From Okamejei kenojei (taxonomy: Eukaryota): DNA of 64,000 nucleotides. The stretch is taken from assembly GCA_035221665.1 (NCBI GenBank), contig CM069131.1:23994001-24058000 (forward strand). Reading direction: 5' to 3'. Of this stretch, positions 270-63,072 are shown in pieces. The notes below the pieces were generated by a model that saw only the letters and a program-made list of their open reading frames with translations, was not told where the DNA came from and ran no database searches. Made by a program: the position numbers and the translations under genes. The number at the start of each line of letters is the position of its first letter. Within the stretch, counting starts at the first letter, position 1.

Positions 270-650
270 ATCAGACGCAAAGTACTTGAGTAACTCAGCG
301 GGTCAGTCAATATCTCTAGAGAAGATGACAGGCAATGTTTTGAGTTGGGACCCTTCTTCAGATGGAACTCTTTGCTTATCCATGTGTAGGGAGGCACTGC
401 AGATGGTGGTTTAAACTGAAGATAGACACAAAGCTGGATTAACTCAGTGGGTCAGACAGCATCTCTGGAGAAAAGGAATAGGTGACGTTTCGGGTCCAGA
501 CCCTTTTTCAGACTGAGAATCAGAGGAAGGGGAAACGAGAGATATAGACGGTGATGTAGAGAGATATAGAACAAATGAATGAAAGATATGCAAAAAAGTA
601 ACGATGATAAAGGAAATGGGCCATTGTTAACTTTTGCCTAGGTGAAGCTG
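270..650 (-). mobile_element. Two tandem Penelope pLTR copies, with a hammerhead motif at 481-515
   Basis: Minus strand reads cagtctgaaaaagggtctggacccgaaacgtcacc, followed by the tattccttttctccagagatgctg family body. Confidence 0.75.
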
Positions 651-2339: not shown

Positions 2340-3540
2340 TAGGTTTAGGTTTATTATTGTCATGAGTACAAAGCTACGAAGCTTTGTTTTGCACGCTACC
2401 GGATCGGATAATATTACACATAAACACATAATGTCAAACTACAGTATAATAGGTAGCACAGAGGGGAAGATTTTTAAGGCAGAGATAGATAGATTCTTGA
2501 TTAGTACGGGTGTCGGGTGTTACGGAGAGAAGGCAGGAGAATGGGGTTAGGAGGGAGAGATTGAATGGTGGAGTAGACTTGATGGGCTGAATGACGTAAT
2601 TCTGCTCCTATCACTAATGACATGACTTATGCAGATACAGAGTGCAGAATGTAGTTCACAGCACTGTAATGCCACATTTGCACAGACATAATATAATGGT
2701 GAATCCGACAGTATTTTTACTTACGAAAGAACGTCCAGAAGGCTGATAACAGAGGGAAAGAAGCTGTTCCTGGTCGTATGTGCTTTCAAGCTTCTGTACA
2801 TTCTGCCCAACAAGAGCAAGGAGAAGAAGGAATGACTGGGCTGGGACATCTTTGATTATGTTCAATGTTCCAAGGCAGCATGAAGAGTACATGGAGTCAT
2901 TGGTGGGGAGTGTGATCTGTGTGATGGACTGGGCCATGTCTGCAACTCTGCAACCTATTTCGGCTGAGTTCCCAACCAAGCTGTTCTGCAACCCAATAGT
3001 ATGCTTGGGGAAATAGCTCTTGCTTTACATCTCTCTCCATCCCCTCCCCTTCCCAGATCTCCCACCAGTCTTACTGTCTCCGACTACATTCTATCTTTGT
3101 CCCACTCACTCCCCTGACATCAGTCTGAGGAAGTCTAACTTCAGTCTGAAGAAGGGTCTCTACCCGAAATGTCTCCCATTCCTTCCTTCTCTCCTACAGA
3201 TTTCCTCCTGTCCCGCTGAGTTACTCCAATATTTTGTGTCTACCAATAGTCTGCTTTCTATGGTGCATCTATAGAAGTTTAAAAGTTATTGGAGACGTGA
3301 CCAATTTCCTCAGTCTCCTGCAGAAGGCGAGGTGTTGATGTTTCTTCATGGCTGTCCCGTCAATATATATGGTCCATGACAGATTGATGGTCATATTAAT
3401 GCAAAGGAACTTGAAGCTCTCAACCATGTTAATATTGGCACCATTGATACTGATTCGGGAAGGTACTCCAACATGCTTTCTGAAGTCCATAACTAGCTCC
3501 TTTGTTTGCTGACATTGAGGGAGAGGTGTTGTCCTAATAC
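2340..3540 (-). mobile_element. Degraded Rex1/Babar-like LINE 3' region with nested CR1 tail (about 2465-2630) and Penelope pLTR (about 3010-3245)
   Basis: Minus ORF MDFRK..ISINGANINMVESFKFL..INLSW..HQHLAFCRRLRK is typical of the Rex1/L2 ORF2 C-terminus; nested cagtctgaagaagggtctctacccgaaatgtc. Confidence 0.7.
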
Positions 3541-7711: not shown

Positions 7712-7975
7712 CACAGTGGCACAGCAAGTAGTGCTGCTGGTTCACAGCTTTAGCAATCTGGGTTCAAAGCTGACCTCTGTTGCCACCTGTATGGAGTCTG
7801 TACTTTCTCCATGGACATTCTGAAGAAGAGTTCTTGACCCAAAACATCACCTATTGGTCTGAAGAAGGATCTCGACCCGAAATGTTACCTATTCCTTTTC
7901 TCCAGAGATGCTATCTGATTCCTGAATGCTGTTGGTTTCCTCCAGATGCTCCCATTTCCTCCCACATCCCAGCAA
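7712..7975 (+). mobile_element. Old V-SINE interrupted by a Penelope pLTR with tandem hammerhead motifs (7818-7920)
   Basis: A-box-like cagtggcacagcaagta, B-box gggttcaaagc and V-domain tatggagtctgtactttctcc; insert tctgaagaagagttcttgacccaaaacatcacc-tattgg-tctgaagaaggatctcgacccgaaatgttacc. Confidence 0.7.
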
Positions 7976-13080: not shown

Positions 13081-14345
13081 AGATGCTGCTTGACACACTG
13101 AACTCCTCCAGTACTATGCTTTGCTCAAGATTCCCACATGAGCAATCATTTGCATTCCTTGGCAGATACACTGTTTCAGTCTGTTCTTTTCCCATGGAAT
13201 TGATTTCTGCCCAATTTTACAGGCGAGATCATTTTGACTTCAATGCGTTTCTTTTCCGCTTAGTCCAGTCTATGTCACAGAAAGAATGTCACAGCCAAGC
13301 CAAATATTAGTCAATAATCATTACCTCAAATATTTTTATCCTTCAGAAAGGAGATGCTAAGTAGATTGCAGAAGGCTGATAACATCTTTCCTTAACTTTT
13401 TGCAAGTAGGAGCTTCCTTCAATCTTTTTTTATTTAAAAAGGGAAACTATTTTCTTGGAGTGCCGACTTCTGAAATAAATCCTCATGCTCTAAAGGGTTT
13501 TGTCAGTCATTTCTAAATAATTCAAGTTTTAAGTGGACAGCAACATGTTGAATACATTTGTTGCACGCATGCAAAACTTACAGCAATGCATTCTTGACGA
13601 TTATTTATCACCAAATTTTACTGAATGGTCAATTAAAGAGTTAATAATAAAAGCTTTGTTTAAGAAAGATCTGCAGATGCTGGAAAATTGAAGGTAGACA
13701 AACGTGCTGGAGAAACTCAGCGGGTGCAGCAGCATCTATGGAGCGAAGGAAATAGGCAACGTTTCGGGCTGAAACCCTTCTTCAGATTGATGTGTATGGG
13801 GGGGGCGGGGAAAGAAAGGGAGAGGAGCCAGAGGGCAGAGGGAGAGCTGAGAAGGGGAGGAGACAATAAGGGCTACCGGAAATTGGAGAAGTCAATGTTC
13901 ATGCCCTGGGGTATAAACTGCCTAAGCAAAATATGAGGTGCTGCTCCTCCAATTCAGAAGTCGGCATCCAAGAAAATAGTTTCCCTTTTTAAATAAAAAA
14001 AGATTGAAGGAAGCTCCTACTTGCAAAAAGTTAAGGAAAGATGTTATCAGCCTTCTGCAATCTACTTAGCATCTCCTTTCTGAAGGATAAAAATATTTGA
14101 GGTAATGATTATTGACTAATATTTGACTTGGCTGTGACATTCTTTCTGTGACATAGACTGGACTAAGCGGAAAAGAAACGCATTCAAGTCAAAATGATCT
14201 CGCCTGTAAAATTGGGCAGAAATCAATTCCATGGGAAAAGAACAGACTGAAACAGTGTATCTGCCAAGGAATGCAAATGATTGCTCATGTGGGAATCTTG
14301 AGCAAAGCATAGTACTGGAGGAGTTCAGTGTGTCAAGCAGCATCT
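13081..14345. repeat. About 394-bp inverted duplication (arms 13081-13474 and 13953-14345)
   Basis: The arms are reverse complements differing by about two substitutions and a 1-nt indel; mirrored ORFs at 13065(+) and 14116(-). Confidence 0.95.
13660..13952 (-). mobile_element. 5'-truncated Penelope element (GIY-YIG C-terminus plus pLTR with hammerhead at 13755-13789)
   Basis: Minus strand encodes LEEQHLIFCLGSLYP/GMNIDFSNFR*, then caatctgaagaagggtttcagcccgaaacgttgcc. Confidence 0.85.
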
Positions 14346-14770
14346 GTGGAGGTAATGGACAGGTGATGTTTTGGATTGGAACCTTTCTTCAGACTGATTT
14401 TGGTAGGGGAGAGAAAGCTGACTAAGTGGGCACAGGTGAGGGGGATTTGATTGGAATATGAGTAGAGTAAGTGACAGTCAAGAGATGAAAAGAAGGCAAA
14501 AGGTTGTCAGATAAGGGGGGAAAAAGAAGGGTGAAATGTAGCCAGAGAGAGGGATGAAATGTGAAGTCAGAAGGGGAGATGTGGATGGAAGTGGAAAGGG
14601 TGGGGATGAAAAGGAAATGAACTTGGGAATGGGAGATGTGTACAAAGGAAAGGAGCAGCATGACCTGCCAGGTGGGAGATGGAGGGCGAATTTAATGCAC
14701 ACCAAGCTGTGTGGAGCACCGGAAATAGAGAGCAAGTAGGGGGGAAATTTAATGTTCATACCGCTGGTTA
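14270..14770 (-). mobile_element. Older Penelope pLTR and ORF end
   Basis: Minus strand reads GMNIKF then a pyrimidine-rich UTR, then cagtctgaagaaaggttccaatccaaaacatcacc. Confidence 0.65.
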
Positions 14771-20910: not shown

Positions 20911-22064
20911 AAGACAAGGTGGTGGCAGTGGCGTATGGAGAAGATGATTGGAACTTGTGAGTGGGCTGCGAGCTTGCCACCCCCTCCACCACCCCCCCTT
21001 TTAAATACTCCAGGGGTGCAGGGGTTCTGAGTTCAGCTATGGGAGGCACCCCAGCACACAGAAAGAAGCCGAGCAATGGCAGCAGGAGACTAGAGGGCTG
21101 TGTGCTCGCTGGCCATGGTATCGGAGGAATGGGCCACTGGAGGCCCTGCAGCAGCTGGATCCCTCAGAGTTTGGACGAGTGTGCAGCTCGGATGAGGTCC
21201 ACAGCAGCAAGGAGTGGTGGTGAAAGACACCGACAGCATCGCCAGGCCAGGCCCGACCTCACCATCACCAACCCAATACTGCCACCAGGATAACGGGCCT
21301 CTTAGGCCAAGATAAGACTCTATTTTTATGAGCTTTATACATGGAAAGTAAACGCTGGAAACTTTGTGTACTGCCACAGAAGAAATCTATTTTTACACTA
21401 TAGTCATTACACATGCATTTATGTATGATTTTTGCTTATGTATAGTTTGATTCAGCGGATTGTATGCATAGCAAAGAATTTTACTATCTAGTTCGATGGG
21501 ACATTGAACTATTAATTGCATCCCTTAATTTCAAACTGCCATAGCATTTTAGTATTCCTCGCATGCATAGAAACATAGAAAATAGGTGCAGGAGTAGGCC
21601 ATTCGGCCCTTCGAGCCTGCACCGCCATTCAATATGATCATGGCTTATCACTGTCCTCCTTCACTTTGGTTAATACAGATGCAAAGTATTCATTTAGAAG
21701 CTCGTCTTCATCCAGTGACTGCCAGCATAAATGTCTGCCTAAATTATGAAGTCTGCCTCTTAGCATTGTGTTATCTGAATGCAATGACTGGTGAGGATGC
21801 TTTTACAACTGCATTGCTTGAGTGTCAGTTTTGCAGTTGCCAGTATAACTGCTAAACATTGTTGTAAATTTGGGGATCTGTGGTTTCCTGATGTTAAGAC
21901 GCACTGAGAAGTGAGATTTGAATTTGAATTTGATTCCTAGAATTTGTAGTTCCGAATTTAAAAAAAAGAGAAATCTGACTGATCGTTTTGAGTAAAATGT
22001 TAACTTTTAAAACTTAATTGTTCGCTCTTTTAAAAAAAAAAACCCCAATAAAGCTGAATGAGTA

Positions 22065-22226
22065 GGAAGGAACTTCAGATGCTGGTTTATACTGAAGATA
22101 GACACAAAATGCTGGAGTATCTCAGCGGGTCTCAGCATCTCTGGAGAAAAGGAATAGGTGACATTTTGGGTCAAAAGAAGGGTTCTAACCCGAAACATCA
22201 CTTATTCCTTTTCTCCAGAGCTGCTG
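22065..22226. mobile_element. Penelope pLTR with short inverted partner
   Basis: ggaacttcagatgctgg..gacacaaaatgctggag..ggtgacattttgggtc joined to aagaagggttctaacccgaaacatcac..ttccttttctccagag. Confidence 0.75.
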
Positions 22227-22569
22227 CCAAAACAGTGTTTTGTGTCTGTATCTCCAGCTGATTGAATCAAGTTTACTGCCTCCACAGATGTTGCTTAATT
22301 TCTGTTCCCAGCATTATTCTTAATATTTTAAATTTCCAGTTTTTACTTGGTTGTTATTTGTATCATGGGTAACTTTCCTAGCAAAAGGAGATCCCTAACA
22401 TGCCATAGAAAAGGATTGTCAAAAATATTGAAACCATAATGGGATAAAGAAGGAGTGGTATTGTGGTTGGAACATAGCTGTGAAACAGAATAAGAGTGAT
22501 GTGGTAAAATACGTCAATACAACTGTTTTAAAGAACAAAACCATACAGGACGTTTATTTATAATAGAGG

Positions 22570-23218
22570 CAGATTGGCCTTCATCATTCAGAGTTTTGAG
22601 TATAGAAGGTGGGGAGGTTATGGTACAATTGTACAATACATTGGTGATGTTGCATTTAGAGTATTGTGTTCAGTTTTGGTCACAGTGTTGTAGAAAAGAT
22701 GCTGTTAAAACAGGAAAGGGTGAAGGGAAGATTTACGAGGATGTTGCCTCGAGGACTCGAGGGCCTGAGCTATCAGGAGAGGTTGAGCAGGCAGGCACGG
22801 GGATGAAGGGTATTCTTAAAGTGTACCTGATCATCAAGGGAATAAATTGGATAAATAGTCTTTTACCCAGAGTAGGGAAATCAAAGTATAGGAAAACTGC
22901 CCTTTGTGTTCCTATAAAAAACCCTCTCACCTTAAGTTGAGAGGGTTTTTTCTCACCTTAAGTTGAGAGGGTTTTTTATAGGAACACAAAGGGCAGTTTT
23001 TTTGCACAACTATGGTAAATATTTGGAACGAGCTGCCAGAGGAAGTAGTTGAGGCAGGTGCTGTTGCAATGTTTAATAAACATTTAGACAGATACATGGA
23101 TAGGATAGCTTTAGAGGGATATTGGCCAAACGCAGGCAGGTGGGACTAGTGTAAATGGGGCATGTTGGTCCATGTGGACAAGTTAGGCCGAAGGGCCTGT
23201 TTCCACACTGTATGACTA
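22570..23218 (+). mobile_element. Degraded CR1 3' portion containing a fold-back at 22893-23000
   Basis: LYNTLVMLHLEYCVQFWS; tggaacgagctgcca; gggcctgtttccac tail. Confidence 0.85.
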
Positions 23219-26789: not shown

Positions 26790-27875
26790 AAGGTTTCAGA
26801 GGTAGGTTGGTGTGGGAATGGCAAGGGGAACTAAAATGACATGCAACTGGGATCCATGGATTGCCATTGTAGAAAGAGCGCAGATGCTCTGAAAACTGGT
26901 CGCATAGCCTGCTCTTGCTGACGTAGGGGAGCACCAAAGTGCTGTTTAGGACCCATGAGGTGGTGTAAGAACAAGTGTTGCAGCTCCTCACCTCGCAGAG
27001 AAAATGCCACGTGTCAGCGAGGGAGGGATAGATGGGGAGGATGAGTGCAGCAGGGAGTCATATAAAGGAATTTCTCTGGTAGGTGGGGAGGGAAGATGTT
27101 GCTTATGGTGGGATGCTGATTCAACAGGTGGAAATAATAACGAATGATGATATCCTGGATGCTGATGGGCTGAAAGGTACGGACTAGGGAAATTCTATCT
27201 CTTCTGTTTGAAGGGAGTGAAATGAAAACAAATGCGGTCGCAAGAAACCTAGAAAGAGATGGTGTTCTCATGAAAGATGTTGGGAAGAGGTGTAGATTGG
27301 GTAGCTCTGGAAGTTGGTGCCTAGTTTCCTTTCTGACTTGGAAATAGAGAGATTCCGAAAAGGAAGAGAGTTTCAGAAGTGGTCCAAATGAATTTAGGAG
27401 TGGAGTGGATGTTAACAGCAATGGTGATAAAAGCTGACGAGTTCTACACCTTCACAGGAGGCAGCACCATTGCAATCATCGATGTGACAGAGGGTCGAGG
27501 AAGCATTGGAACAAACACTGTTCCATGTAGCCAATGAATAGACAAGCAAAGCTGGGGCCTATACCCATGGCAACATGTTCAACATAGTGAGTCTGAGGAA
27601 TCAAAAGAGAAACTGTTCAGGGTAAGAACAAGTCCTGCCAGGGAGGGTAAAGTCGTCAAGTCGAGTCATCTTGCAGGAAGAAATGTAGGGCTGTCATGCT
27701 GTCCCTTTTTTGATGAGGGCTGGAGATGTATAAATGAAGATGAGGACTAAATGTGGAGGACTATGCAAGTGTCCCAGATGTAGATGGGAGGGAGCTGGAC
27801 ATGGGGAGACTGGTTAGTGGCAAAGACTGAAATAAGTTCAGAGGGGAAGGAACAGGTAGAAACAATAGTCCTTAG
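26790..27875 (-). pseudogene. Penelope-like RT plus GIY-YIG endonuclease pseudogene
   Basis: Minus strand VAMGIGPSFACLFIGYME (PLE RT motif), HIDDCNGAAS (YxDD site), RISLVRTFQP and SKSRLCDQFSEHLRS..PVACHFSSPCHS (GIY-YIG). Confidence 0.85.
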
Positions 27876-51736: not shown

Positions 51737-51798
51737 ATGAGTCCATTCAGGAGTTTGCCGCATTTTTACGTACTCTCGAGGAACAGAGGGAAATGATG
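51737..51798 (+). CDS. ARHGAP10: GRAF-family RhoGAP coding exon (BAR domain; probable exon 3)
   Basis: ttccAG acceptor and GTaagc donor; 62 nt, phase 1/0, in frame with the previous exon; (D)ESIQEFAAFLRTLEEQREMM versus recalled ARHGAP10 DASLREFSNFLKNLEEQREIM. Confidence 0.92.
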
Positions 51799-54315
51799 GT
51801 AAGCAGAAATACTGTGCGCTAGGAGAAGGAATTGTCTCCACATATTTTAACTAAGTATTCTGGGAACTGTCTTGCTTGCTTGCTTGCTATATAAATATAG
51901 ATAGGTCTTTTGAGATCAATTCACCACAAACTACTTTCATGTCATCAGGAAATTGATTGGAATGCACCTCTCAACAGATTGTTGGAAATGTAGTTTCTCT
52001 ATGTTCTCTAAATCCCCAAGGGGAAAAGATTGTTGCAAGTTGTTAGCTTCAGTCTGTGGTTTTACTGTTCCCATAATCTAACTTGCTATTTACTGTTCTT
52101 TTCCAAAAGCATTATGGTATTTAATTGTTTTAGGCTGACCACAGCATAAGATCCACTTTGTTGCTTAATTTATTTTCCCTCTGTTGGAGCTCATTTCAGC
52201 CTAGTGATTTAAAACCGAATGCAATTCATTCTGAAGTGTATTTACCGTATATTTCCCGGCAATGAACTCGCTATTTTTTACCCAAAAATAAGGCATGAAA
52301 TTTTACCTGCGTCTTGGAGGCCAAAGGTTAGGTTGTTAGCCAAGAAAGATATACTTGGCTATCCCTCAGTACAGCAACGTCAAGAACGATGTTGCTGTAC
52401 AGAGGGATGGCCAAGTCTGTCCCTCATTGCTGGCAGCTGATGGGAAGCGGCTGTAATAGGACAGCGCCACTGTGGGTTCTTATCACAGCATGTGGGGAGG
52501 CTGGCCCGGGTCAGCATGGGCATGAGCGTTGAGAAGGAAGGGGTCGGGGATCATGCCAGCAACTCACCGCTGCCGTGACGCTCCGGGCGCGGAGCCACCG
52601 CATTGTGGCCGGGGAGGGAAGTAGCTCGGGTGGCTGCGAGCGGCCACCGGGCCCGGACAGCGGAACCCGCAGCCACCTCAGCACCTTATGCCGGCCCGCT
52701 CACCTCTGGCAGTACTCTCCCTCTGAACACCTCTCTCCTGCCGCTCGCTGGCCTTGCTCATTTCAACTGCTTCCCGCAAATCCTTAAGTTTCGACTGCCG
52801 CTGGGAGCAGGACATGGCCTCACCTGCTGCTCTGGGTGACACTGCACGGCATTCACCATGTCTTTCAAGAGCAAAGATCATAGAGCGGAGCGGGTCAGCT
52901 GGCGATGGATAACAGGACAGCGGGCGGTGGAGCTTACTCCTGTGTCACAGGGCTCGAAATTAGCGGTTGCCCGGGTGCCAATGACCACTCAAAGTGCCGC
53001 CGGGCAACCTAAACACCGATTCATTTTGCCCGGCTTCGCACGGAAATACTGGTTTATACCGATAGACACAAAAAACTGGAATAACTCAGCGGGTCAGGCA
53101 ACATCTCTGGCGAATAGGAACGTGACGTTTCGTGTCGGCAGCGGCTATATTGCGGGGCAAAGAAACTAGGAGCTATCACCCTGATAACGGCCGCTGCCTG
53201 CAAATCCGCCAACAACGCTTTCAAAACAACCCCTCTCGCACGCCGAGGCCGGGAGGTGGGAGGGAGAGAGGGAGGCCTCCTTCCGCCGTCTGAAGCAAAG
53301 CTCCTCTAGGATCTTTGGTCTGAAGCAGCTGCACCAAAGATCCTATAGCTATAGGATCTTTGTGCTGCCCCGCTCGGCCCCGCACCTTGTTGTCGGCTGG
53401 CGGATGAGGGGAGGCGGTGGCGAGGAAATCCCCACTGCCACCCCCTTTGACGGCGGCACTTTGGCGTTGGACAGGGACGGCCAAGGCAGCGGGGCGATGT
53501 TGNNNNNNNNNNNNNNNNNNNNNNNNNNNNNNNNNNNNNNNNNNNNNNNNNNNNNNNNNNNNNNNNNNNNNNNNNNNNNNNNNNNNNNNNNNNNNNNNNN
53601 NNNNNNNNNNNNNNNNNNNNNNNNNNNNNNNNNNNNNNNNNNNNNNNNNNNNNNNNNNNNNNNNNNNNNNNNNNNNNNNNNNNNNNNNNNNNNNNNNNNN
53701 NNNTGGTTCCCCAATTCATCCTGTACTGACCCCCCTTCCCATCCATCCTGCACTTCTCCCCCCCACTCGTACTGTACTGATCCCCCCCATTCAAGAAGAA
53801 TGAGGGGAACAGTATGAGGAAGGGTCTCGACCCGAAACGTTGCCTATTTCCTTCTCTCCATTGATGCTGCTTCACCCACTGAGTTTCTCCAGCATTTTTG
53901 TCTACCCCATTCATCCTGTACTGATCCCCCCCCATCCATCCCGTACTGATCCCCCCCATTCAACACCACTGACATCCCCCGTGCTCTCCCCTCACAATTT
54001 TACCTACTCCAACCCACACGTACTAATTCACCTGCCTTAATCCATGCATTCTGCACTGATTGCCTTCTCACCCCCCCCCCCCCCCAAACATCTATCCACC
54101 CCGCAATGATTCACCCCCCCCCCCCCCCCCCTAACCATATTGTGCTTCATGGTCTTCAGAGCGAACATTGACTGTTTGATAACGGAATTCAATCAAATGT
54201 GTTTTAATTCCCAATGCTATTATTTCTTTTGACACCTTTAAACATATTACCAAAAGAACATTTGCTGCAGTTATGTCCTTTGGCTATCTCTTGTCAGTTA
54301 GTGTAATGTTTAATG

Positions 54316-57300
54316 TACATATAGATTGGGTGAATCAAATTGGCAGGGGTGCTGAGGAAGAGGATTTCTTGGAATGTATGCGGGATAGTTTTCTAAACCA
54401 ACATGTAGAGGAACCAATGAGAGAGCAGGCTATTCTAGACTGGGTATTGAATAATGAGGAAGGGTTAGTTAGCAGTCTTGTGTGCGTGGCCTCTTGGGCA
54501 AGAGTGACCATAATATGGTTGAGTTCTTCATTAGGATGGAGAGTGACATTGTTAATTCAGAAACAAGGGTTCTGAACGAGACCTAGGTATCATGGTACAT
54601 CAGTCATTGAAAGTAGGCATGCAGGTGCAGCAGGCTGTGAAGAAAGCAAATGGTATGTTGGCATTCATAGCAAAAGGATTTGAGTACAAGAGCAGGGAGG
54701 TTCTACTGCAGTTGCACAGGGTCTTGGTGAGGCCACACCTGGAGTATTGCATACAGTTTTGGCCTCCTAATCTGAGGAAAGACATTCTTGCCATAGAGGG
54801 AGTACAGAGAAGGTTCACCAGACTGATTCCTGGGATGGCAGGGCTTCCATATGAAGAAAGACTGGATAGGCTCGGCTTGTACTCGCTGGAATTTAGGAGA
54901 TTGAGGGGGGATCTTATAGAGGCTTACAAAATTCTTAAGGGGTTGGGCAGGCTAGATGCAGGAAGATTGTTCCCGATGTTGGGGAACTCCAGAACAAGGG
55001 GTCACAGTTTAAGGATAAGGGGGAAGTCTTTTAGGACCGAGATGAGAAGATCTTTTTTCACACAGAGTGGCGAGTCTGTGGAATTCTCTGCCTCACAGTA
55101 GTTGAGGCCAGTTCATTGGCTATATTTAAGAGGGAGTTAGATGTGGCCCTTGTGGCTAAAGGGATCAGGGGGTAAGGAGAGAAGGCAGGTACAGGATACT
55201 GAGTTGGATGATCAGCCATGATCATATTGAATGGCGGTGCAGGCTCGAAGGGCCGAATGGCCTACTCCTGCACCTATTTTCTATGATTCTATGAACTTAA
55301 AGAAAGGTAACTTTGAGGGTATGAGACGTGAATTGGCCAAGATAGACTGGCAAGTGATTCTTAAAGGGTTGATGGTGGATATGCAATGGAAGGCATTTAA
55401 AGACTGCATGGATGAACTACAACAATTGTTCATCCCAGTTTGGCAAACTAATAAATCAGGGAAGGTAGTGCATCCGTGGATAACAAGGGAAATCAGGGAT
55501 AGTATCAAAACTAAAGATGAAGCATACAAATTAGCCAGAAAAAGCAGCCTACCAGAGGACTGGGAGAAATTCAGAGTCCAGCAGAGGAGGACAAAATGCT
55601 TAATTAGGAAAGGGAAAATAGATTATGAAAGAAAACTGGCAGGGAACATAAAAACTGACTGCAAAAGGTTTTCTAGATATGTGAAGAGAAAAAGGTTAGT
55701 TAAAACAAATGTAGGTCCCTTGCAGTCAGAAACTGGTGAATTGATCATGGGGAACAAGGACATGGCAGACCAATTGAATAACTACTTTGGTTCTGTCTTC
55801 ACTAAGGAAGACATAAATAATCTGCCGGAAATAGCAGGGGACCGGGGTCAAATGAAATGGAGGAACTGAGTGAAATCCAGGTTAGCCGGGAAGTGGTGTT
55901 AGGTAAATTGAATGGATTAAAGGCCGATAAATCCCCAGGGCCAGATAGGCTGCATCCCAGAGTACTTGAGGAAGTAACCCGAGAAATAGTGGATGCATTA
56001 GTGATAATTTTTCAAAACTCTTTAGATTCTAGAGCAGTTCCTGAGGATTGGAGGGTAGCTAATGTAACCCCACTTTTTAAGAAGGGAGGGAGAGAGAAAA
56101 CGGGGAATTACAGACCAGTTAGTCTAACATCGGTAGTGCGGAAAATGCTAGAGTCAGTTATTAAAGATGGAATAGCAGCACATTTGGAAAGTGGTGAAAT
56201 TATTGGACAAAGGCAGCATGGATTTATGAAAGGTAAATCATGTCTGACGAATCTTATAGAATTTTTCGAGGATGTAACTAGTAGAATGGGTAAGGAGAAC
56301 CTGTGGATGTGTTATATCTGGACTTTCAGAAGGCTTTTGACAAGGTCCCACATAAGAGATTACTATACAAACTTAAAACACATGGTATTGGGGGTTCAGT
56401 ATTGATGTGGATAGAGAACTGGCTGGCAGATAGGAAGCAAAGAGTAGGAGTAAACAGGTCATTTTCAGAATGGCAGGCAGTGACTAGTGAGGTACCACAA
56501 GGCTCAGTGCTGGGACCCCAGCTATTTACAATATATATTAATGATCTGGATGAGGGAATTGAATGCAACATCTCCAAGTTTGCGGATGACACGAAGCTGG
56601 GGGGCAGTGTTAGCTGTGAGGAGGATGCTAGGAGGCTGCAAGGTGACTTGGATAGGTTGGGTGAGTGGGAAAATGCATGGCAGTTGCAGTATAATGTGGA
56701 TAAATGTGAGGTTATCCACATTGGTGGCAAAAACAGGAGGTAGACTATTATCTGAATGGTGGCCGATTAGGAAAAGGGGAGATGCAACGAGACCTGGGTG
56801 TCATGGTACACCAGTCATTGAAAGTAGGCATGCAGGTGCAGCAGGCTGTGAAGAAAGCGAATGGTATGTTGGCATTCATAGCAAAAGGATTTGAGTCCAA
56901 GAGCAGGGAGGTTCTACTGCAGTTGTACAGGGTCTTGGTGAGGCCACACCTGGAGTATCGCATACAGTTTTGGTCTCCTAATCTGAGGAAAGACATTCTT
57001 GCCATAGAGGGAGTACAGAGAACGTTCACCAGACTGATTCCTGGGATGGCAGGACTTCCATATGAAGAAAGACTGGATAGACTCGGCTTGTACTTGCTGG
57101 AATTTAGAAGAATGAGGGGGGATCTTATTGAGACTTACAAAATTCTTAAGGGGTTGGACAGGCTAGATGCAGGAAGATTGTTCCCGATGTTGGGAAGTCC
57201 ACAACAAGGGGTCACAGTTTAAGGATAAGGGGGAAGTCTTTTAGGACCGAGATGAGAAAATCATTTTTCACACAGAGAGTGGTGAGTCTGTGGAATTCTC

Positions 57301-57513
57301 TGCCACAGAAGGTAGTTGAGGCCAGTTCATTGGCTATATTTAAGAGGGAGTTGGATGTAGCCCTTGTGGCTAAAGGGATCAGGCGGTATGGAGAGAAGGC
57401 AGGTACAGGATACTGAGTTGGATGATCAGCCATGATCATATTGAATGGCGGTGCAGGCTCGAAGGGCCGAATGGCCTACTCCTGCACCTATTTTCTATGT
57501 CTATGTTTCTATG
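54316..57513 (+). mobile_element. Relatively young CR1 LINE (endonuclease end through RT and 3' UTR), frameshifted
   Basis: FNVHIDW..AILDWVL; KSPGPDRLHPRVL; NYRPVSLTS; YLDFQKAFDKVPH; VPQGSVLGP; FADDTK; (ttctatg)n tail. Confidence 0.95.
54578..55293 (+). mobile_element. Same-family CR1 3' fragment nested inside the CR1
   Basis: Near-identical to 56790-57513; interrupts the ..RVLN^LKKGNFEG frame; aac on both sides. Confidence 0.9.
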
Positions 57514-57969
57514 TTAACCTGTCTGATGGGTATAGTCGGTTTTAACAGTTATTATCATAAAATGCCTTTAGAAATTTCCTTGCAATCTGTATATTTTGTT
57601 ATGGATAAATTATGTGGGAAGCGAGAGTGTTTCTGTGCCAATAGCAATAACGACCCATGCTAAGGCCATGTCATGATAATTTTCGGTCCTTCACAGAGAA
57701 CATGCTTGCATCAATCTGTAGTGTGCATGGTTAAGCATATATGTTACCATGGTCCAGGATTTATTGACACAGGTTGATCATACGCTGAATAATCCAACCA
57801 CATTTTTGTTTGGAAGTGGAAAGAACTAATAGAAATTGCATTAATTGCAATGTGTAAAAAGAGTTGAGATATTGTATTATAATTTTGCTGCATGTCATTG
57901 TGGTATATATCATGACTTGATTGGTGAATATGTTTGTGAATTATTTGAAGCAGAAATAATATGTGAATG

Positions 57970-58188
57970 TAGACAAAAGTGCTGGAGAAACTCAGCGGAT
58001 GCGGCAGCATCTATGGAACGAAGGAAATAGGCAACGTTTCGGGCCGAAACCCTTCTTCAGACTGATGGGTTTCGGCCTGAAACGTTGCCTATTTCCTTCG
58101 CTCCATAGATGCTGTTGCACCCGCTGAGTTTCTCCAGCACTTTTGTCTACATTCGATTTTCCAGCATCTGCAGTTCCTTCTTGAACAC
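57970..58188. mobile_element. Palindromic Penelope pLTR pair with 9-bp TSD
   Basis: 57965-58154 folds back on itself; atgtgaatg at 57961-57969 and 58189-58197. Confidence 0.85.
58030..58064 (-). ncRNA. Minimal type-I hammerhead ribozyme motif (intact core)
   Basis: CAGU-CUGAAGA-A-GGGU-UUCG-GCCC-GAAA-CGUU-GCC contains the CUGANGA and GAAA boxes, stem II and an NUH triplet. Confidence 0.7.
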
Positions 58189-59449
58189 ATGTGAATGCTT
58201 CTTTGAGCATAATTCCGACTGGTAACTACGCACTTCGTCCGAGCATATTATCGCACGCGGCATGCAAACTGTCTTAAATGACCACCTAAACTGTCATTTG
58301 GCGACCTAAAAATCTGCCAAGGTTGCCTGGTTGGCAACAGGGAAATAAAGTTAAGTGAGAGCCCTGTGTCAGCGCGAGTAACCTCAATTGATTCCTTGAA
58401 CTAGTATTGACATTCAATAAGATGACAACTAATTCAACTTGTCCCGGTGTGCTCCCGTTTTCCCCACCGTCTCTCCACCTGCCATCACCCTCCACCCCCC
58501 ACCCATTCAGTCATTCAGAATGGAGGAGATCTGGAATCCTTGGACAAATTGATTTGTTACTTTCTTTTTTAGATATTTATTTATTTTTGAGCATGAGAAA
58601 TTCTATGTCCTTCCAGCCTTTTTTCTAAATTTTGCAACTCAAAATGGGGGTGCGTCATCGACGCAGGTGCGTCTTCATTGCCGGGAAAACCCAGCTGCTG
58701 AAGATTTCAGCTTAGTTTTTATATCCTTTGACTTCCATATGAATTTCAAGACAGTTGTAGACTTACATATAGTAACGATGTTGTTTTTCCAGTTAATTAT
58801 CAGTATCTTTTATTGACTAAAATTGTCATAGCTTGGTAATTTAATAGTTTCTGGACAGTAGGCAAATTCTGAATTTAAAATTATATAATTAAGTGTGAAA
58901 CAGGTTTTGTTTTTGTGGCACATATTTATGGTATGGGAAGTGTAGTCCAGAGGGAATTCTTAACTCAGCTATGTTTAGAATAGTGATTTTACTGTGCCTG
59001 CAATGGGTTATATATTTCCAGGCTTTGAACAAATGGTAAATGTGTTTCTCAGCAACTCCAGCAAAGCCATTTCTAGGATAGCTGGTGCTATGCATTTCAA
59101 TTGAGATCAGTAGCACTGGGCATCCTGGGAATTGCCTCAGAATTGCCCACCCTGGAAAACATTTTTCTGGCTGAACATTGTTGGTTGTGAGTTTTCCATG
59201 GAATGCCTGCTGTAGATAGCTATATCTTTTTAGTTAATCTGTAACATCATGCCCTGCATAATCAACATTTAGCAAATGGATCAATTCACTGGAGCATATA
59301 ATGTTCTCTAAATCCCCAAGGGGAAAAGATCATTGCAAGTTGCTAGCTTCAGTCTGTGGTTTTACTATTTCCATAATCTAACTTGCTATTTACTGTTCTT
59401 TTCCAAAAGCATTATGGTATTTAATTATGTTATTTAATTATGGTATTTA

Positions 59450-59633
59450 TGACAAGCCTACTGTCCCCGCCTCTTCCTTCCCCCCCCCACCCCCCCTCAA
59501 CATCAGTCTGAAGAAGGGTCTCGACCCGAATCGTCACCTATTCCTTCTCTCCATAAATGCTGCCTGACCCACTGAGTTTCTCCAGCATTTTTGTCTACCT
59601 TCGATTTTTCCAGCATCTGCAGTTCTTTCTTAA
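59450..59633 (+). mobile_element. Penelope pLTR
   Basis: cagtctgaagaagggtctcgacccgaatcgtcacc...cagcatctgcagttctttcttaaa. Confidence 0.85.
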
Positions 59634-60049
59634 ATAACGGAGCATATTACCAAATTTTGTCCATTACCTAGAAATCCGCAGAATGCCTTAGTGGTGTTTT
59701 TTTCAAATTGGTTAAATATATATTCACTTGGGGGAATAAAAACATTAAAAATATTTAGCTACATCATGAATGAAAATATTTATCACTTCCCTTTTCCCTT
59801 TTGTCCTAAAGCCATTAACATTTTCCATTTATTCTTTCAGGGGCTTTATTCATTTATAATTTCCTGTAGGACAGTAATTGATGCTGTTAAAAAGAGTCAC
59901 ATGTCACATCTAATCGGCTGCTCTCATGCCATGTTATACTCTTGAACAGGTGGAACAAACACCTGCGGAATGTTTTTGGGACCCTACTTAGATAAGGAGA
60001 TCAGTGAAATTAGATACATGTAATGCTATAGAGAGATACAACATGGATT

Positions 60050-60680
60050 GACACACAAAGCTGGATTAACTCAGCGGGACAGGCAACATCTCTGGAGAGA
60101 AGGAATGGGCGACGTTTCGGGTAGAGACCAGACTGATGTCAGGAGAGGGAGATACATAGATAAGGAAAGGTAAGGTGTGAAAATAGGACAAAGGGAATAG
60201 TGATCAAGGAAAATGTAGAATAGATCATTGTTAGCTGGGAAAAGATAACAACAAAACAAACAAATAAAATGTAGTCAGAGACAGTAAGACTGGTCGGAGA
60301 AGTGGGAAGGGACGGGATGGAGAGAGGGACAGCAAGGGTTACTTGAAATTAGAGAAGTCAGTGTTCATTCCGCTGGGGTGTAAGCTCCCAAGCAAAATAT
60401 AAAGTGCTTTTTCTCCAATTTGCGCTGGGCCTCACTCTGACAATGGAGAATGGGGATTACCATTTAAGAGATGTAACGTCTTAACAAATGGCCTGTTTAC
60501 TTTATCGTAGTTACTTTGTTTACATATCTTTCATTCATTGTTCTTTATCACTACATCATCGTATATATGTCTAGTTCCGCTTTTCCCAAATTAGTCTGAA
60601 GAAGGGTCTTGACACAAAATGTCGTCCATTCTTTCTCTCCAGAGATACTGCCTGTCCCGCTGATGGTGCTGCTGAGTTAC
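60050..60680. mobile_element. Penelope 3' end (minus, 60050-60450) with an inverted pLTR (plus, 60480-60680)
   Basis: Minus strand LHCQSEAQRKLEKKHFIFCLG../GMNTDFSNFK*; plus strand agtctgaagaagggtcttgacacaaaatgtc. Confidence 0.8.
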
Positions 60681-62799
60681 ACCTGCTTTTCATAGTTTAC
60701 TCCTCTTCTCTTATCACTTACACCCTTCTGTCATCTTTGTCTTCTTACCATTTCTGATCTTTGTCCACCCATCTGCTATCTCTCCTCCCTCCACCCCCCC
60801 AACGATCCACACCCAAAACGACGTCTGATTCCACAGATGCTGACTGAACCGCTGAGTTATTCCAACATTCAGTGTCTTTCTTGTTTTTTGTAAACCAACA
60901 TCTGCAGTTCCTCCTGCGGAAACATGAATTGCAGGTGCTGGTTAATACTCAAAAGGACATAAAGGCAGTTTGTTCTGTCAGCCATTAATCTTAATTAATC
61001 CCATTCTCCCTACATTTTGTCAGCACTCCTCAGATTCTACAATTCACCAACACAAAGGAGCAATTTTACAGTGGCGATTTAACCAAATAACCCATACTTA
61101 TTTGAGAAGTGGGAGAAAACCAGAGTGCATCAGGTGACCACAAAAAATGTAGCCTCCATACTAACAGCATCCATCAAGTTTGGAGTTTAGTTGGCTGTAC
61201 AATGTTGGACTTCCTGTTACATGGTAAAAATGGGTTGTAAAGATGAGATGAGGCTCAAGTAAGTCTTTTTTTGAAGGTAAGTTTAGGTTTTCTCGCGAGA
61301 CCAGGAGGAGCATGATTTTTTTTCGACTTAACAGAGAGATGTTGGGTCTCGGGTACACAAAATGCTGGAGAAACTCAGCGGGTGCAGCAGCATCTATGGA
61401 GCGAAGGAGATAGGCAACGTTTCGGGCTGAAACCCTGCTTCATACCCCTCTCTTGTTCCAGGGTTGTCTTCACTTCTCCCATATCACCTTTAATATTAGG
61501 GTTCTGTGTATTCAGACTCTTTAATCTATGGGAGCATTTATATAACAGAGGTATCTTTTCATGAATCTTATCTGTAGTTCTTCTGTGAAAAAAACATAGG
61601 CTGATTTCTATTTCTGTCCGTGTCTGTCATGGCCTCTGTTGATTTGTTGGGATTAAAGGACCTACAGATTCAAACATAAATTAGCTCGTATAGATTAGCT
61701 TTATTGGTTCGTACCTTTATGAATTAATTAATCCATAACTTTATTTTTGTAAACAAAACTTCTTTAAAATTTCTAATGCATGATTTAACAAGCTGGTGAT
61801 TCTAAAGGCTGCTTTCAGTCTGGTTTAATGGCTATTAATTTTTAAGACTGTTTTGTATACAAACACTGTTCTTACATTATTTTATGCTAGATGTCGATTG
61901 GTTTGTTATCAAAGTGAAACTAAATCTGGCTGGTGTACAGGAAAAGAAAAGATTGAATTATGTTGGTCAATAAACTAATGGGTGCTTATTTGGGGATCTT
62001 CATTATATTTCAGTGGTAGTCTGGTTTCAGTTGCAGAGCACCTCATACAATCAAGATATTGTGTGTGGCATGTGATACAATGTAATTGAAACTTTTGTGT
62101 CATTAATACCTCACTGAATCAGTGAGGTGTATTTCTGCATCGTAAGATTTGAGCACAGATTTAATCCTGTTTTTGGTTAAAATTAGCATTCACTATGATA
62201 CACTATGATTCACTGATGAGTTCTTGTCACCAAAATGAATTAGTTACCAATATTTCCTGAGCAATTTGCACCAATCTATTGTTAGTCCCATAACAAGGCC
62301 ACAGCTTGCTTTAATGTCCAGTGAGTTGCGAGTTTGTGCAGTTACATCGTCATTATCCTACAGCACGGAAACGGGCCCTTCAGCCCATCTTAGTCATGTC
62401 TACCAAGATGCTCAATCTTCCCTAGTCCCACCTGCCACATTTGGCCCACATCCCTCTAATCCTTTCCAATCCATAACCTGTCCAAGTGTCTTTTAAATGT
62501 TGTTATTCCTGCATATTAATTACCAATTACTTGCCATAATAATTTAGAACTGGTAATTGATGACATTTGTACCCATTTTAATGAGATTTTCTGTGCCTAT
62601 TGAAAGTGAACCGACCTCTCCAGTTAAAAGAAAAGACTAAATTTTTTTGAGTTCTTTTTCTGTTTTTCCCCACTTTCTTTTTTCTGCAGTCTTTTTTGTG
62701 CCTTTATTTTCTTCTCTGTAAAGACTCCAATTCATTCATTAAAATTCACTGCCGATATTTGTTCTCAACCTTAAATGTAATTGAAATAAAAACGTAATG

Positions 62800-62960
62800 T
62801 TGGAAATATTCAGCTGATCAGGAAGCCTTGGTGGAGAGAGAAATAAAGTTAATGCTTCAGGTCAGTGACCTTTCATCAAAGTCCTAAAAGGTCATGAGCC
62901 TGAAATATTAACTGTGTTTTCTATCTCCACAGATGCTACCTGAGCTGAAAATCAAGATTT
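62800..62960. mobile_element. Older Penelope pLTR sub-family, inverted pair
   Basis: Minus strand tgatgaaaggtcactgacctgaagcattaact; plus strand aaaggtcatgagcctgaaatattaact..ccacagatgctacctga. Confidence 0.65.
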
Positions 62961-63072
62961 CTGCTCTAGATATATTTCCCAAGCTGCCAGAGCAGTTCTC
63001 TGCGATGTTTTCCAACATGTTATGTTCCGTTGCACCTGAAAGATAACTAGGTAATGTATTTGTATTAACTGA

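What the first reader, a model, noticed from the sequence alone, without database searches (positions are those of the whole stretch)
58030..58064. Hammerhead ribozyme motif in the dominant short repeat, covarying across three Penelope sub-families
Seen: the abundant 'ctgaagaagggtctcgacccgaaacgtcacc' repeat has hammerhead anatomy: CUGANGA, one extra A, stem II, GAAA, a very short CG-palindromic stem III, an NUH triplet and 2-4 bp of stem I. Three variants change sequence but keep stem II pairing: GGGUC-UC-GACCC (481-515 minus, 3143, 59504), GGGU-UUCG-GCCC (58030 minus; GGG-UUUCAG-CCC at 13755 minus) and AGGUC-ACU-GACCU (62848-62880 minus). More than a dozen copies occur in 64 kb, on both strands, and two of these repeats (13660-13952, 60050-60450) are directly attached to a GIY-YIG C-terminus. 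Established: Penelope-like elements carry minimal type-I hammerheads thought to act as dimers. Inference: this genome holds a very large family of mostly non-autonomous, ribozyme-bearing Penelope repeats (retrozyme-like) that sit inside host pre-mRNAs. In this window the plus-strand copies I could read (host-sense) all have core or stem changes, while the two intact cores are antisense, which could reflect selection against cleaving the ARHGAP10 transcript. The sample is small.
Basis: partly seen in the sequence, partly recalled or inferred. Interest (0 to 1): 0.75.

Follow-up and report, generated by a model that had tools for sequence, protein, structure and literature searches.

The report
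Fossil Penelope ends with minimal hammerheads
The hammerhead ribozyme motif is really there, in the terminal repeat of a very abundant Penelope-type jumping gene, but the copies in this gene are short, likely dead insertions decaying on both strands alike, so this is a known arrangement and shows no sign of selection by the host gene.

Summary
The motif is real: 58030-58064 (minus) carries all 12 hammerhead core bases, a 4-bp stem II and a 2-bp stem I. It belongs to a repeat with 31 independent copies in the window; two hang on a GIY-YIG C-terminus, so it is the pLTR/tail of a Penelope-like element, where such minimal hammerheads were described in 2014. Covariation among window copies does not beat shuffles; stem I does covary in related elements elsewhere. 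The strand-bias idea fails here: 15 sense versus 16 antisense copies, full cores 2 versus 2; CpG decay and age explain the losses. No tandem retrozyme arrays. One lead remains: 5' ends and all five inversion junctions fall at or inside the hammerhead, none at its cut site. The scan noted this before in two other genomes.

The parts
58030..58064 (-). Minimal type-I hammerhead motif: stem I 5' strand 58062-58061, CUGAAGA 58060-58054, extra A 58053, stem II 58052-58049 / 58044-58041 with UUCG loop, GAAA 58040-58037, CG 58036-58035, UU 58034-58033, predicted cut 58033/58032
57965..58067 (-). Left arm of the inverted insertion: 7 nt upstream of the core, hammerhead, about 65 nt of tail; its last 5 nt coincide with the target duplication (microhomology)
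58067..58188 (+). Right arm: same sub-family, starts at G10.1 of stem II (lacks CUGANGA), full tail; arms 93% complementary over 91 nt
57961..57969 (+). Target-site duplication, left copy (ATGTGAATG)
   Evidence: empty-site joint 57963 to 58192 in contigs of 3 of 4 runs
58189..58197 (+). Target-site duplication, right copy
13657..13990 (-). Sub-family A copy with frameshifted GIY-YIG C-terminus (stop ends 13873), 87-nt pyrimidine-rich spacer, full core (C3 = 13785; stem I has one mismatch), tail
60044..60463 (-). Sub-family B copy with frameshifted GIY-YIG C-terminus (stop ends 60339), 207-nt spacer, core with a 7-nt deletion, tail
3011..3245 (+). Host-sense copy with all 12 core bases and 4-bp stem II (C3 = 3146; C15.2 changed to U), bounded by an 8-bp direct repeat
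7812..7925 (+). Two hammerhead heads in a 38-nt tandem; the second keeps all 12 core bases but only 3 stem II pairs
381..630 (-). Sub-family B copy with upstream pLTR; G8 changed to A; followed head-to-tail by the 272-365 copy
59460..59637 (+). Host-sense copy, A15.1 changed to U
22059..22298 (.). Head-to-head pair, junction near 22170 inside the hammerhead
39493..39716 (.). Head-to-head pair with a 13-bp target duplication; arms overlap at the TCAG/CTGA near-palindrome
44225..44401 (.). Head-to-head pair, junction near 44290; present again inverted at 44555-44743 (counted once)
62781..62963 (.). Head-to-head pair of the divergent sub-family C (AGGU...ACCU stem II), both arms decayed
26790..27870 (-). 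Decayed RT-linker-GIY-YIG remnant of a Penelope-like element with a C-x4-C-x2-C linker, no hammerhead attached
   Evidence: tblastn with L079 and L028 ORFs, E down to 1e-7
46168..46263 (+). Host exon, BAR domain (GRAF/ARHGAP10-like; gene name recalled)
   Evidence: Pfam BAR_3 E = 0.018, below the curated cut-off
51737..51798 (+). Next host exon, AG/GT-bounded and in phase with the previous one
   Evidence: no Pfam hit on its own

Best explanation
The repeat is the terminal module (minimal hammerhead plus about 65-130 nt of tail) of Penelope-like retrotransposons, and the window's copies are likely dead-on-arrival, 5'-truncated insertions whose hammerhead core is conserved between sub-families but decays after insertion, mostly at CpG sites and on both strands alike. 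Inferred mechanism: the element's RT-GIY-YIG protein nicks the target, starts cDNA at an internal site in the tail of an uncleaved RNA, and usually stops at or within the hammerhead. When both nicked strands prime, two cDNAs are joined head to head between one target duplication, as at 57961-58197. The ribozyme would matter only in the RNA of active master elements, probably with help from a second copy or the element's protein; a lone intronic copy is predicted to misfold, and the 58030 copy to be locked in a 91-bp hairpin.
For: Shown: GIY-YIG C-terminus 87 and 207 nt upstream of the core in two copies, as in unrelated loci where the same core follows a GIY-YIG ORF by about 85-165 nt (L006, L028, L040) or precedes a 961-codon RT frame (L079). 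In those loci, positions not in the search pattern behave as a hammerhead: base 17 is C or U in 56 of 56 distinct contexts, and stem I pairs in 50, 46, 47 and 34 of 56 with compensatory changes (shuffle p at most 0.004; related loci are not independent). One insertion event at 58k: 9-bp duplication (chance 0.7%) and an empty-site joint skipping 228 nt in 3 of 4 runs. Five independent head-to-head pairs hold 10 of 31 copies. CpG positions changed in 36 of 116 cells against 17 of 252 at other core positions (p = 4e-9), 34 of 36 as C>T or G>A. Core damage rises with tail divergence (rho 0.57, p = 0.006, 21 copies). Within sub-family A the core is no better kept than the tail (4 of 54 against 18 of 360, p = 0.51), while across sub-families it is (6.7% against 14.1%, p = 0.001). 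Predicted folding: stem II probability 0.14 for the bare 34-mer, about 0 with the downstream pyrimidine tract or the inverted arm. Literature: minimal HHRs in pLTRs, inactive as monomers (PMC4209133); uncleaved RNA is the substrate and cleavage needs the protein (PMC11167929); adjacent inverted truncated copies with 8-10 bp duplications (PMC8557442, PMC3846280).
Against: No full-length element of this family was seen, so autonomy of the master is inferred; no genome is held. The GIY-YIG pieces score weakly on their own (E 0.002-0.09; no Pfam hit). Only 5 of 27 units tested show a credible target duplication, 2 of the 5 pairs among them. Nine truncation points were set by hand, which lowers the core change rate. 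Thermodynamic folding ignores tertiary contacts, proteins and co-transcriptional order. Cleavage and expression were not tested. The pile-up of 5' ends at the hammerhead is not explained by random truncation.
Confidence: 0.8

Rival explanations
1. The short copies are a non-autonomous family of their own (SINE-like or retrozyme-like) with a defined start just upstream of the hammerhead, mobilised in trans by the Penelope protein.
For: By hand, 24 of 31 copies start between about 8 nt upstream and 18 nt downstream of C3; by automatic alignment 18 of 29 start between -9 and +14 (noisy). In contigs from elsewhere in the genomes, 4 of the 15 listed joints and several letters-between rows land on 59505/59506, 3 and 2 nt upstream of C3.
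Against: 5' ends spread over about 25 nt rather than one base; 7 of 31 copies continue into pLTR, two into the ORF; the same short form occurs in three sub-families; no 150-450 bp tandem arrays.
Confidence: 0.12
2. Intact ribozymes can cut the host pre-mRNA, so selection removes intact cores from the sense strand of introns.
For: With the CG palindrome required, intact cores are 0 of 15 sense and 2 of 16 antisense. A preprint reports retrozymes under-represented in Xenopus introns, without a strand test in the parts read (10.64898/2026.07.22.740005).
Against: p = 0.48; with the 12 core bases alone it is 2 against 2; sense copies carry fewer core changes on average (1.0 against 1.8, p = 0.22); orientation is 15:16; the two intact antisense copies belong to the least diverged sub-family; published minimal HHRs do not cleave as monomers (PMC4209133).
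Confidence: 0.06
3. The hammerhead look is a chance arrangement of a purine run and a short hairpin.
For: No Rfam hammerhead model matches at E up to 10; folding z-scores are near zero; window covariation is not above shuffles.
Against: Full descriptor 3 found against 0.01 expected; same core with covarying stem I and NUH beside GIY-YIG ORFs in unrelated loci; extra base after A9, G10.1-C11.1 and palindromic 15.2-16.2 match the published minimal form (PMC4209133).
Confidence: 0.02

Closest known systems
Minimal type-I hammerheads (min-HHR) in pLTRs of metazoan Penelope-like elements (Cervera and de la Pena 2014, PMC4209133)
   Same: CUGANGA, one extra base after A9, G10.1-C11.1, GAAA, palindromic 15.2-16.2 with no stem III, UH; mostly single dispersed motifs from truncated elements; pairs on opposite strands; thousands per genome in fish, coelacanth and frog.
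   Different: Stem II is 4 bp and stem I only 2 bp (published: 7-8 and 4-5 bp for the schistosome family). No shark, skate or chimaera name was found in the two supplementary files that could be searched (file 1 could not be searched).
Canonical EN+ PLE insertion units, Neptune clade (PMC8557442, PMC3846280)
   Same: C-terminal GIY-YIG, pLTR with HHR, tail, heavy 5' truncation, partial tandems, adjacent inverted truncated copy, 8-13 bp target duplications; Cys linker in the 26.8-27.9 kb remnant.
   Different: Here both arms of the inverted unit are only about 100-120 nt and the junction lies inside the hammerhead in 5 of 5 pairs; clade assignment rests on the linker motif and C-terminal profile, not on an RT tree.
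PAc, Poseidon element of Anolis carolinensis (PMC11167929)
   Same: HHR just upstream of a tail whose end marks internal RT initiation; insertion from uncleaved RNA fits the window copies keeping the core.
   Different: Different clade; activity was measured there, not here.
Non-LTR retrozymes (PMC7229834; preprint 10.64898/2026.07.22.740005)
   Same: Short, protein-free, hammerhead-bearing, PLE-related repeats in animal genomes.
   Different: Retrozymes are head-to-tail arrays of 150-450 bp with canonical HHRs, expressed as circles; these are dispersed single or inverted copies with a minimal HHR.

Membership tests
PLE minimal type-I hammerhead | Conserved core CUGANGA / GAAA / UH | tested here: met
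   All 12 core bases in 58030, 13755, 3146 and 7859 (4 of 31 copies)
PLE minimal type-I hammerhead | Extra base after A9, G10.1-C11.1, palindromic 15.2-16.2 | tested here: met
   Extra A in 23 of 23, G10.1 in 22 of 23, CG the majority
PLE minimal type-I hammerhead | Stems I and II supported by covariation | tested here: inconclusive
   Not above shuffles among 21 window copies; stem I covaries in 56 contexts from related elements elsewhere
PLE minimal type-I hammerhead | Self-cleavage as dimer or with protein help | not testable with these tools
   Needs an in vitro assay
Canonical type-I hammerhead (Rfam) | Match to an Rfam hammerhead model, with full stems I and III and loop-loop contact | tested here: not met
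   No hammerhead family among 14 matches at E up to 10
EN+ Penelope-like element | pLTR follows a C-terminal GIY-YIG domain | tested here: met
   Top 4 of 3663 peptides, weak E-values, two loci
EN+ Penelope-like element | 5' truncation, tail, partial tandem or inverted units, target duplication | tested here: met
EN+ Penelope-like element | Full RT-EN ORF between two pLTRs for this family | not testable with these tools
   No genome held; only a detached 1.1-kb remnant in the window
Neptune clade | Cys-rich linker between RT and EN | tested here: inconclusive
   Seen in the 26.8-27.9 kb remnant and in L023/L057, not physically linked to a hammerhead copy in the window; no RT tree built
Non-LTR retrozyme | Head-to-tail array of 150-450 bp units, each with a hammerhead | tested here: not met
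   Only one 38-nt dimer among 16 tandem rows
Non-LTR retrozyme | Expression as circular RNA | not testable with these tools
   No raw-read RNA run was available

The most novel reading that the evidence does not exclude
The hammerhead sits at the very 5' end of the template RNA. The TCAGT just before the core is an initiator-like start site (or the 3' splice site of a pLTR intron, which in D. virilis Penelope ends at helix I), so the hundreds of thousands of short copies are complete run-off cDNAs from the first internal priming site, and the head-to-head pairs are two such cDNAs made by a dimeric enzyme and joined inside the hammerhead. The genome would then be a base-level record of Penelope transcription start, RT start and second-strand joining, and the ribozyme's role would be to trim the capped 5' end rather than to cut tandem RNA into units.
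Probability: 0.2. Interest if true: 0.55.

Novelty: new member of a known kind. Interest (0 to 1): 0.22.

Why it matters
As it stands it adds one more vertebrate lineage to a described association and warns against reading intronic motif matches as active ribozymes: most are CpG-decayed, truncated or predicted to be buried in hairpins. Its use is as a data set. At about one copy per 2 kb, such a genome allows a well-powered test of sense-strand selection and a precise map of Penelope 5' ends, RT start sites and inversion junctions, which bears on the open question of what the hammerhead does in these elements.

Tried and rejected
Rfam scan: no hammerhead match, only hairpin-type microRNA models over the inverted pairs. 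No whole genome held, so no genome-wide strand test. Protein search with the 26.8-kb GIY-YIG piece: 16 candidates, none significant. Pfam on 17 window peptides found nothing for the two GIY-YIG C-termini or the second exon. The ESM Atlas gave no useful match for the first exon, so the gene name ARHGAP10 is recalled, not tested. No RNA holder listed among 24 runs; the one possible RNA run laid was probably DNA and all four runs were contigs, so nothing is said about expression, cleavage ends or circles; whether the 58k insertion is shared by the other organisms could not be read from the rows shown. The family's tail was absent from viral contigs and from the 120 metagenome loci. Automatic 5'-end mapping was confounded by sub-family differences and self-matches and is quoted only as a rough check. 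Dimer co-folding of the 34-mer gave a non-hammerhead duplex. Dropped before counting: 13080 (no hammerhead part, inside a local duplication), 35746 and 50253 (weak hits), 44555 and 44648 (inverted duplicate of the 44290 pair). The 11-bp repeat around 53808 was not counted as a target duplication because it lies in a 25-nt tandem repeat. Look-ups of earlier findings by sequence and by place returned nothing.

Full report
What is there. The minus strand at 58064-58030 reads CAGU CUGAAGA A GGGU UUCG GCCC GAAA CG UU GCC. It has the 12 invariant core bases, the extra base after A9, a G10.1-C11.1 pair opening a 4-bp stem II (last pair U-G), a CG palindrome in place of stem III, a GUU triplet and a 2-bp stem I. 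The loose pattern CUGANGA..GAAA is not above chance in the window (7 found, 5.3 expected), but a full minimal-hammerhead descriptor finds 3 sites against 0.01 expected. No Rfam hammerhead model matches, as expected for a form without stem III.

The repeat family. nhmmer with six window copies as seeds gave 36 hits. I dropped five (one without the hammerhead part, two weak, two duplicates), leaving 31 copies, about one per 2 kb, 15 plus and 16 minus. Each is the hammerhead, whole or in part, followed by a tail of roughly 65-130 nt. Three sub-families differ in loop II and tail. In contigs of four runs, bins holding the repeat have summed depths four to five orders above unique bins; the tool warns this is no copy number, so I take it only as 'very abundant'. 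The organism is probably a cartilaginous fish; this is recalled from the repeat's sequence and was not tested.

It is the end of a Penelope-like element. A pattern search of metagenome contigs returned 120 loci with the same core. In several, a GIY-YIG ORF stops about 85-165 nt upstream (Pfam GIY-YIG in L028, L040 and L006), and in L079 a 961-codon frame with an RT domain opens at the motif. A profile of the last 40 residues of nine such ORFs ranks the window pieces at 13876-13988 and 60342-60463 first to fourth among 3663 six-frame peptides, each piece split across two frames, with weak E-values of 0.002-0.09. Their stops lie 87 and 207 nt upstream of C3. A detached RT-linker-EN remnant with a C-x4-C-x2-C linker lies at about 26,790-27,870 minus, pointing to the Neptune clade; no tree was built.

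Covariation. Among 21 aligned window copies (the ones spanning the motif) 74.4% of cells pair, against 73.2% after shuffling; 143 of 500 shuffles reach this and 111 of 500 reach the covariation score; slid controls give 11-43%. The better evidence is external: in 56 distinct contexts from the metagenome loci, positions outside the search pattern give C or U at position 17 in 56 of 56 and stem I pairing in 50, 46, 47 and 34 of 56, with swaps such as ACA/UGU, CCA/UGG, GCA/UGC, CUA/UAG and AGU/ACU (shuffle p at most 0.004). Those loci are related to each other, so the p-values are generous, and they support the motif class, not activity of the window copies.

The 58030 copy is the left arm of a head-to-head inverted pair, arms 57965-58055 and 58064-58154, 93% complementary. 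A 9-bp direct repeat bounds the pair (57961 and 58189; such a repeat arises in 0.7% of 4848 random placements). The pair sits in another interspersed repeat, and contigs of 3 of 4 runs join 57963 to 58192, skipping exactly 228 nt, the empty site (short sides of 22-23 letters). So both arms arrived in one event. The right arm lacks CUGANGA because the junction cut it off, not through later change. Either strand is predicted to fold into a hairpin of about -177 kcal/mol with stem II probability near zero. Even alone, the motif's predicted folds compete with the hammerhead: stem II probability is 0.14 for the 34-mer and about 0 once the downstream pyrimidine tract is included. Five independent pairs of this kind hold 10 of the 31 copies, and all five junctions fall at or inside the 35-nt hammerhead; two have target duplications (9 and 13 bp). 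Credible duplications were found for 5 of 27 units tested.

Strand bias. Two plus-strand exons, 46168-46263 and 51737-51798, have AG/GT ends and matching phase; the first gives Pfam BAR_3 at E = 0.018, below the curated cut-off. The name ARHGAP10 and the idea that the whole window is intronic rest on recall of the gene's structure; no further exon was found. Taking plus as sense: all 12 core bases are intact in 2 of 15 plus and 2 of 16 minus copies (p = 1.0); adding the CG palindrome gives 0 and 2 (p = 0.48); adding a 2-bp stem I gives 0 and 1. Among 22 copies spanning the core, plus copies average 1.0 changes and minus 1.8 (p = 0.22). The four CpG positions of the motif are changed in 36 of 116 cells against 17 of 252 at other core positions, 34 of 36 as deamination-type transitions; G12, the general base, sits in one of these CpGs and is A in 11 of 28. 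Damage tracks tail divergence (rho 0.57, p = 0.006). Within sub-family A the core is not better kept than the tail (p = 0.51); across sub-families it is (p = 0.001, with a bias from nine hand-set truncation points). This fits constraint in active master elements and neutral decay afterwards. Pooled rates predict 2.7 fully intact copies among 22 (2 seen) and a 27% chance of none among 10 plus copies. A small genome-wide bias is not excluded.

Mechanism. Shown: sequence anatomy, GIY-YIG link, single-event inverted insertion, CpG-biased decay, no detectable strand difference. Inferred: priming at nicked target DNA from an internal site in the tail of an uncleaved RNA, early termination near the hammerhead, and double priming for the inverted pairs. 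This follows PMC11167929 (read: parts 1-2 of 4, the main text and start of methods), where a Poseidon protein cut and extended both strands, started RT internally, did not need hammerhead cleavage and was needed for it. PMC3846280 (passages) offers another route to head-to-head units, self-priming on an antisense template; my data do not separate the two.

The remaining lead. By hand, 24 of 31 copies begin between about -8 and +18 relative to C3 and none begins at the cut site (+29); 7 run further into the pLTR. An automatic mapping is noisier: 18 of 29 between -9 and +14, and 2 poorly aligned copies at +42. Joints from elsewhere in the genomes often land 2-3 nt upstream of C3. The sequence there, a pyrimidine tract ending in TCAGT, resembles both an initiator and a 3' splice site (consensus recalled). 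In D. virilis the start lies 46 nt upstream of a 75-nt intron (PMC2377424, passages) whose end maps to helix I (PMC4209133), so a start directly at the hammerhead is not the known arrangement. RT stalling at structure is a plain alternative. Two earlier findings of this scan, e1-7858714 and e1-7788964, describe the same 5' clustering and fold-back copies in other genomes; they are unchecked notes and not independent proof.

Comparison with what is known. PMC4209133 (read: parts 1-2 of 4, results and discussion; two supplementary files searched, file 1 not available and it may hold further examples) defines this minimal form in pLTRs, reports thousands of dispersed copies in fish, coelacanth and frog, no monomer cleavage and low dimer cleavage. 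PMC8557442 (passages) calls adjacent inverted truncated copies typical. PMC7229834 (passages) defines non-LTR retrozymes as tandem arrays with canonical hammerheads; none is here. Preprint 10.64898/2026.07.22.740005 (parts 1-3 of 5; supplements closed) includes one chondrichthyan genome and found cleavage in 1 of 9 tested dimers. PMC6155905 and PMC13725137 were seen as passages only. Searches for Penelope + ribozyme + shark and Penelope + skate + cartilaginous found no paper on this family; subscription journals and repeat databases were not searched.

Verdict. A real motif and a new member of a known kind. The host-selection and retrozyme readings are not supported. Interest 0.22.

Noticed in passing
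window 58095-58111 (+) and the same place in all three sub-families: 12-20 nt after the predicted cut, every sub-family has a pyrimidine tract, YAG and then ATG, which looks like a 3' splice site; a simple exon scan called 58109-58190 a candidate exon. Sense copies could offer cryptic acceptors to the host intron.
   Followed up: no
window 58060-58010 (-), 59508-59548 (+), 13785-13745 (-): The purine run GAAGAAGGG of the core is predicted to pair with the downstream pyrimidine tract in several copies, an alternative hairpin that would switch the hammerhead off; energies are not better than shuffles.
   Followed up: partly
window 44225-44401 and 44555-44743: The same inverted pair occurs twice in opposite orientation next to assembly gaps; the left arm lacks 13 nt of the 3' core that the right arm begins with. 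Duplication or assembly artefact.
   Followed up: no
window 53808-53820 (+) and 61445-61435 (-): Two sub-family A-like copies both have A in place of C3, at their 5' edge; shared variant or junction effect.
   Followed up: no
window about 57510-58385: The inverted pair is inserted in another high-copy repeat of unknown kind, itself interrupted by CR1-like LINE pieces (joint 54309 to 57514).
   Followed up: no
window 47300-48800: Remnant of a Tc1/Sleeping Beauty-type transposase (Pfam HTH_SB, E = 1e-22).
   Followed up: no
window 13081-13474 and 13990-14409: A local duplication of about 390 nt that includes the tail of the 14272 copy.
   Followed up: no
L079:10-2899: A complete-looking 961-codon Penelope-like frame opening right at an intact minimal hammerhead; a candidate intact element of an unnamed organism.
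   Followed up: partly
window 22888-23000 and 22129-22229: Other short inverted or hairpin structures that draw weak microRNA-model matches; the second is one of the head-to-head pairs.
   Followed up: no
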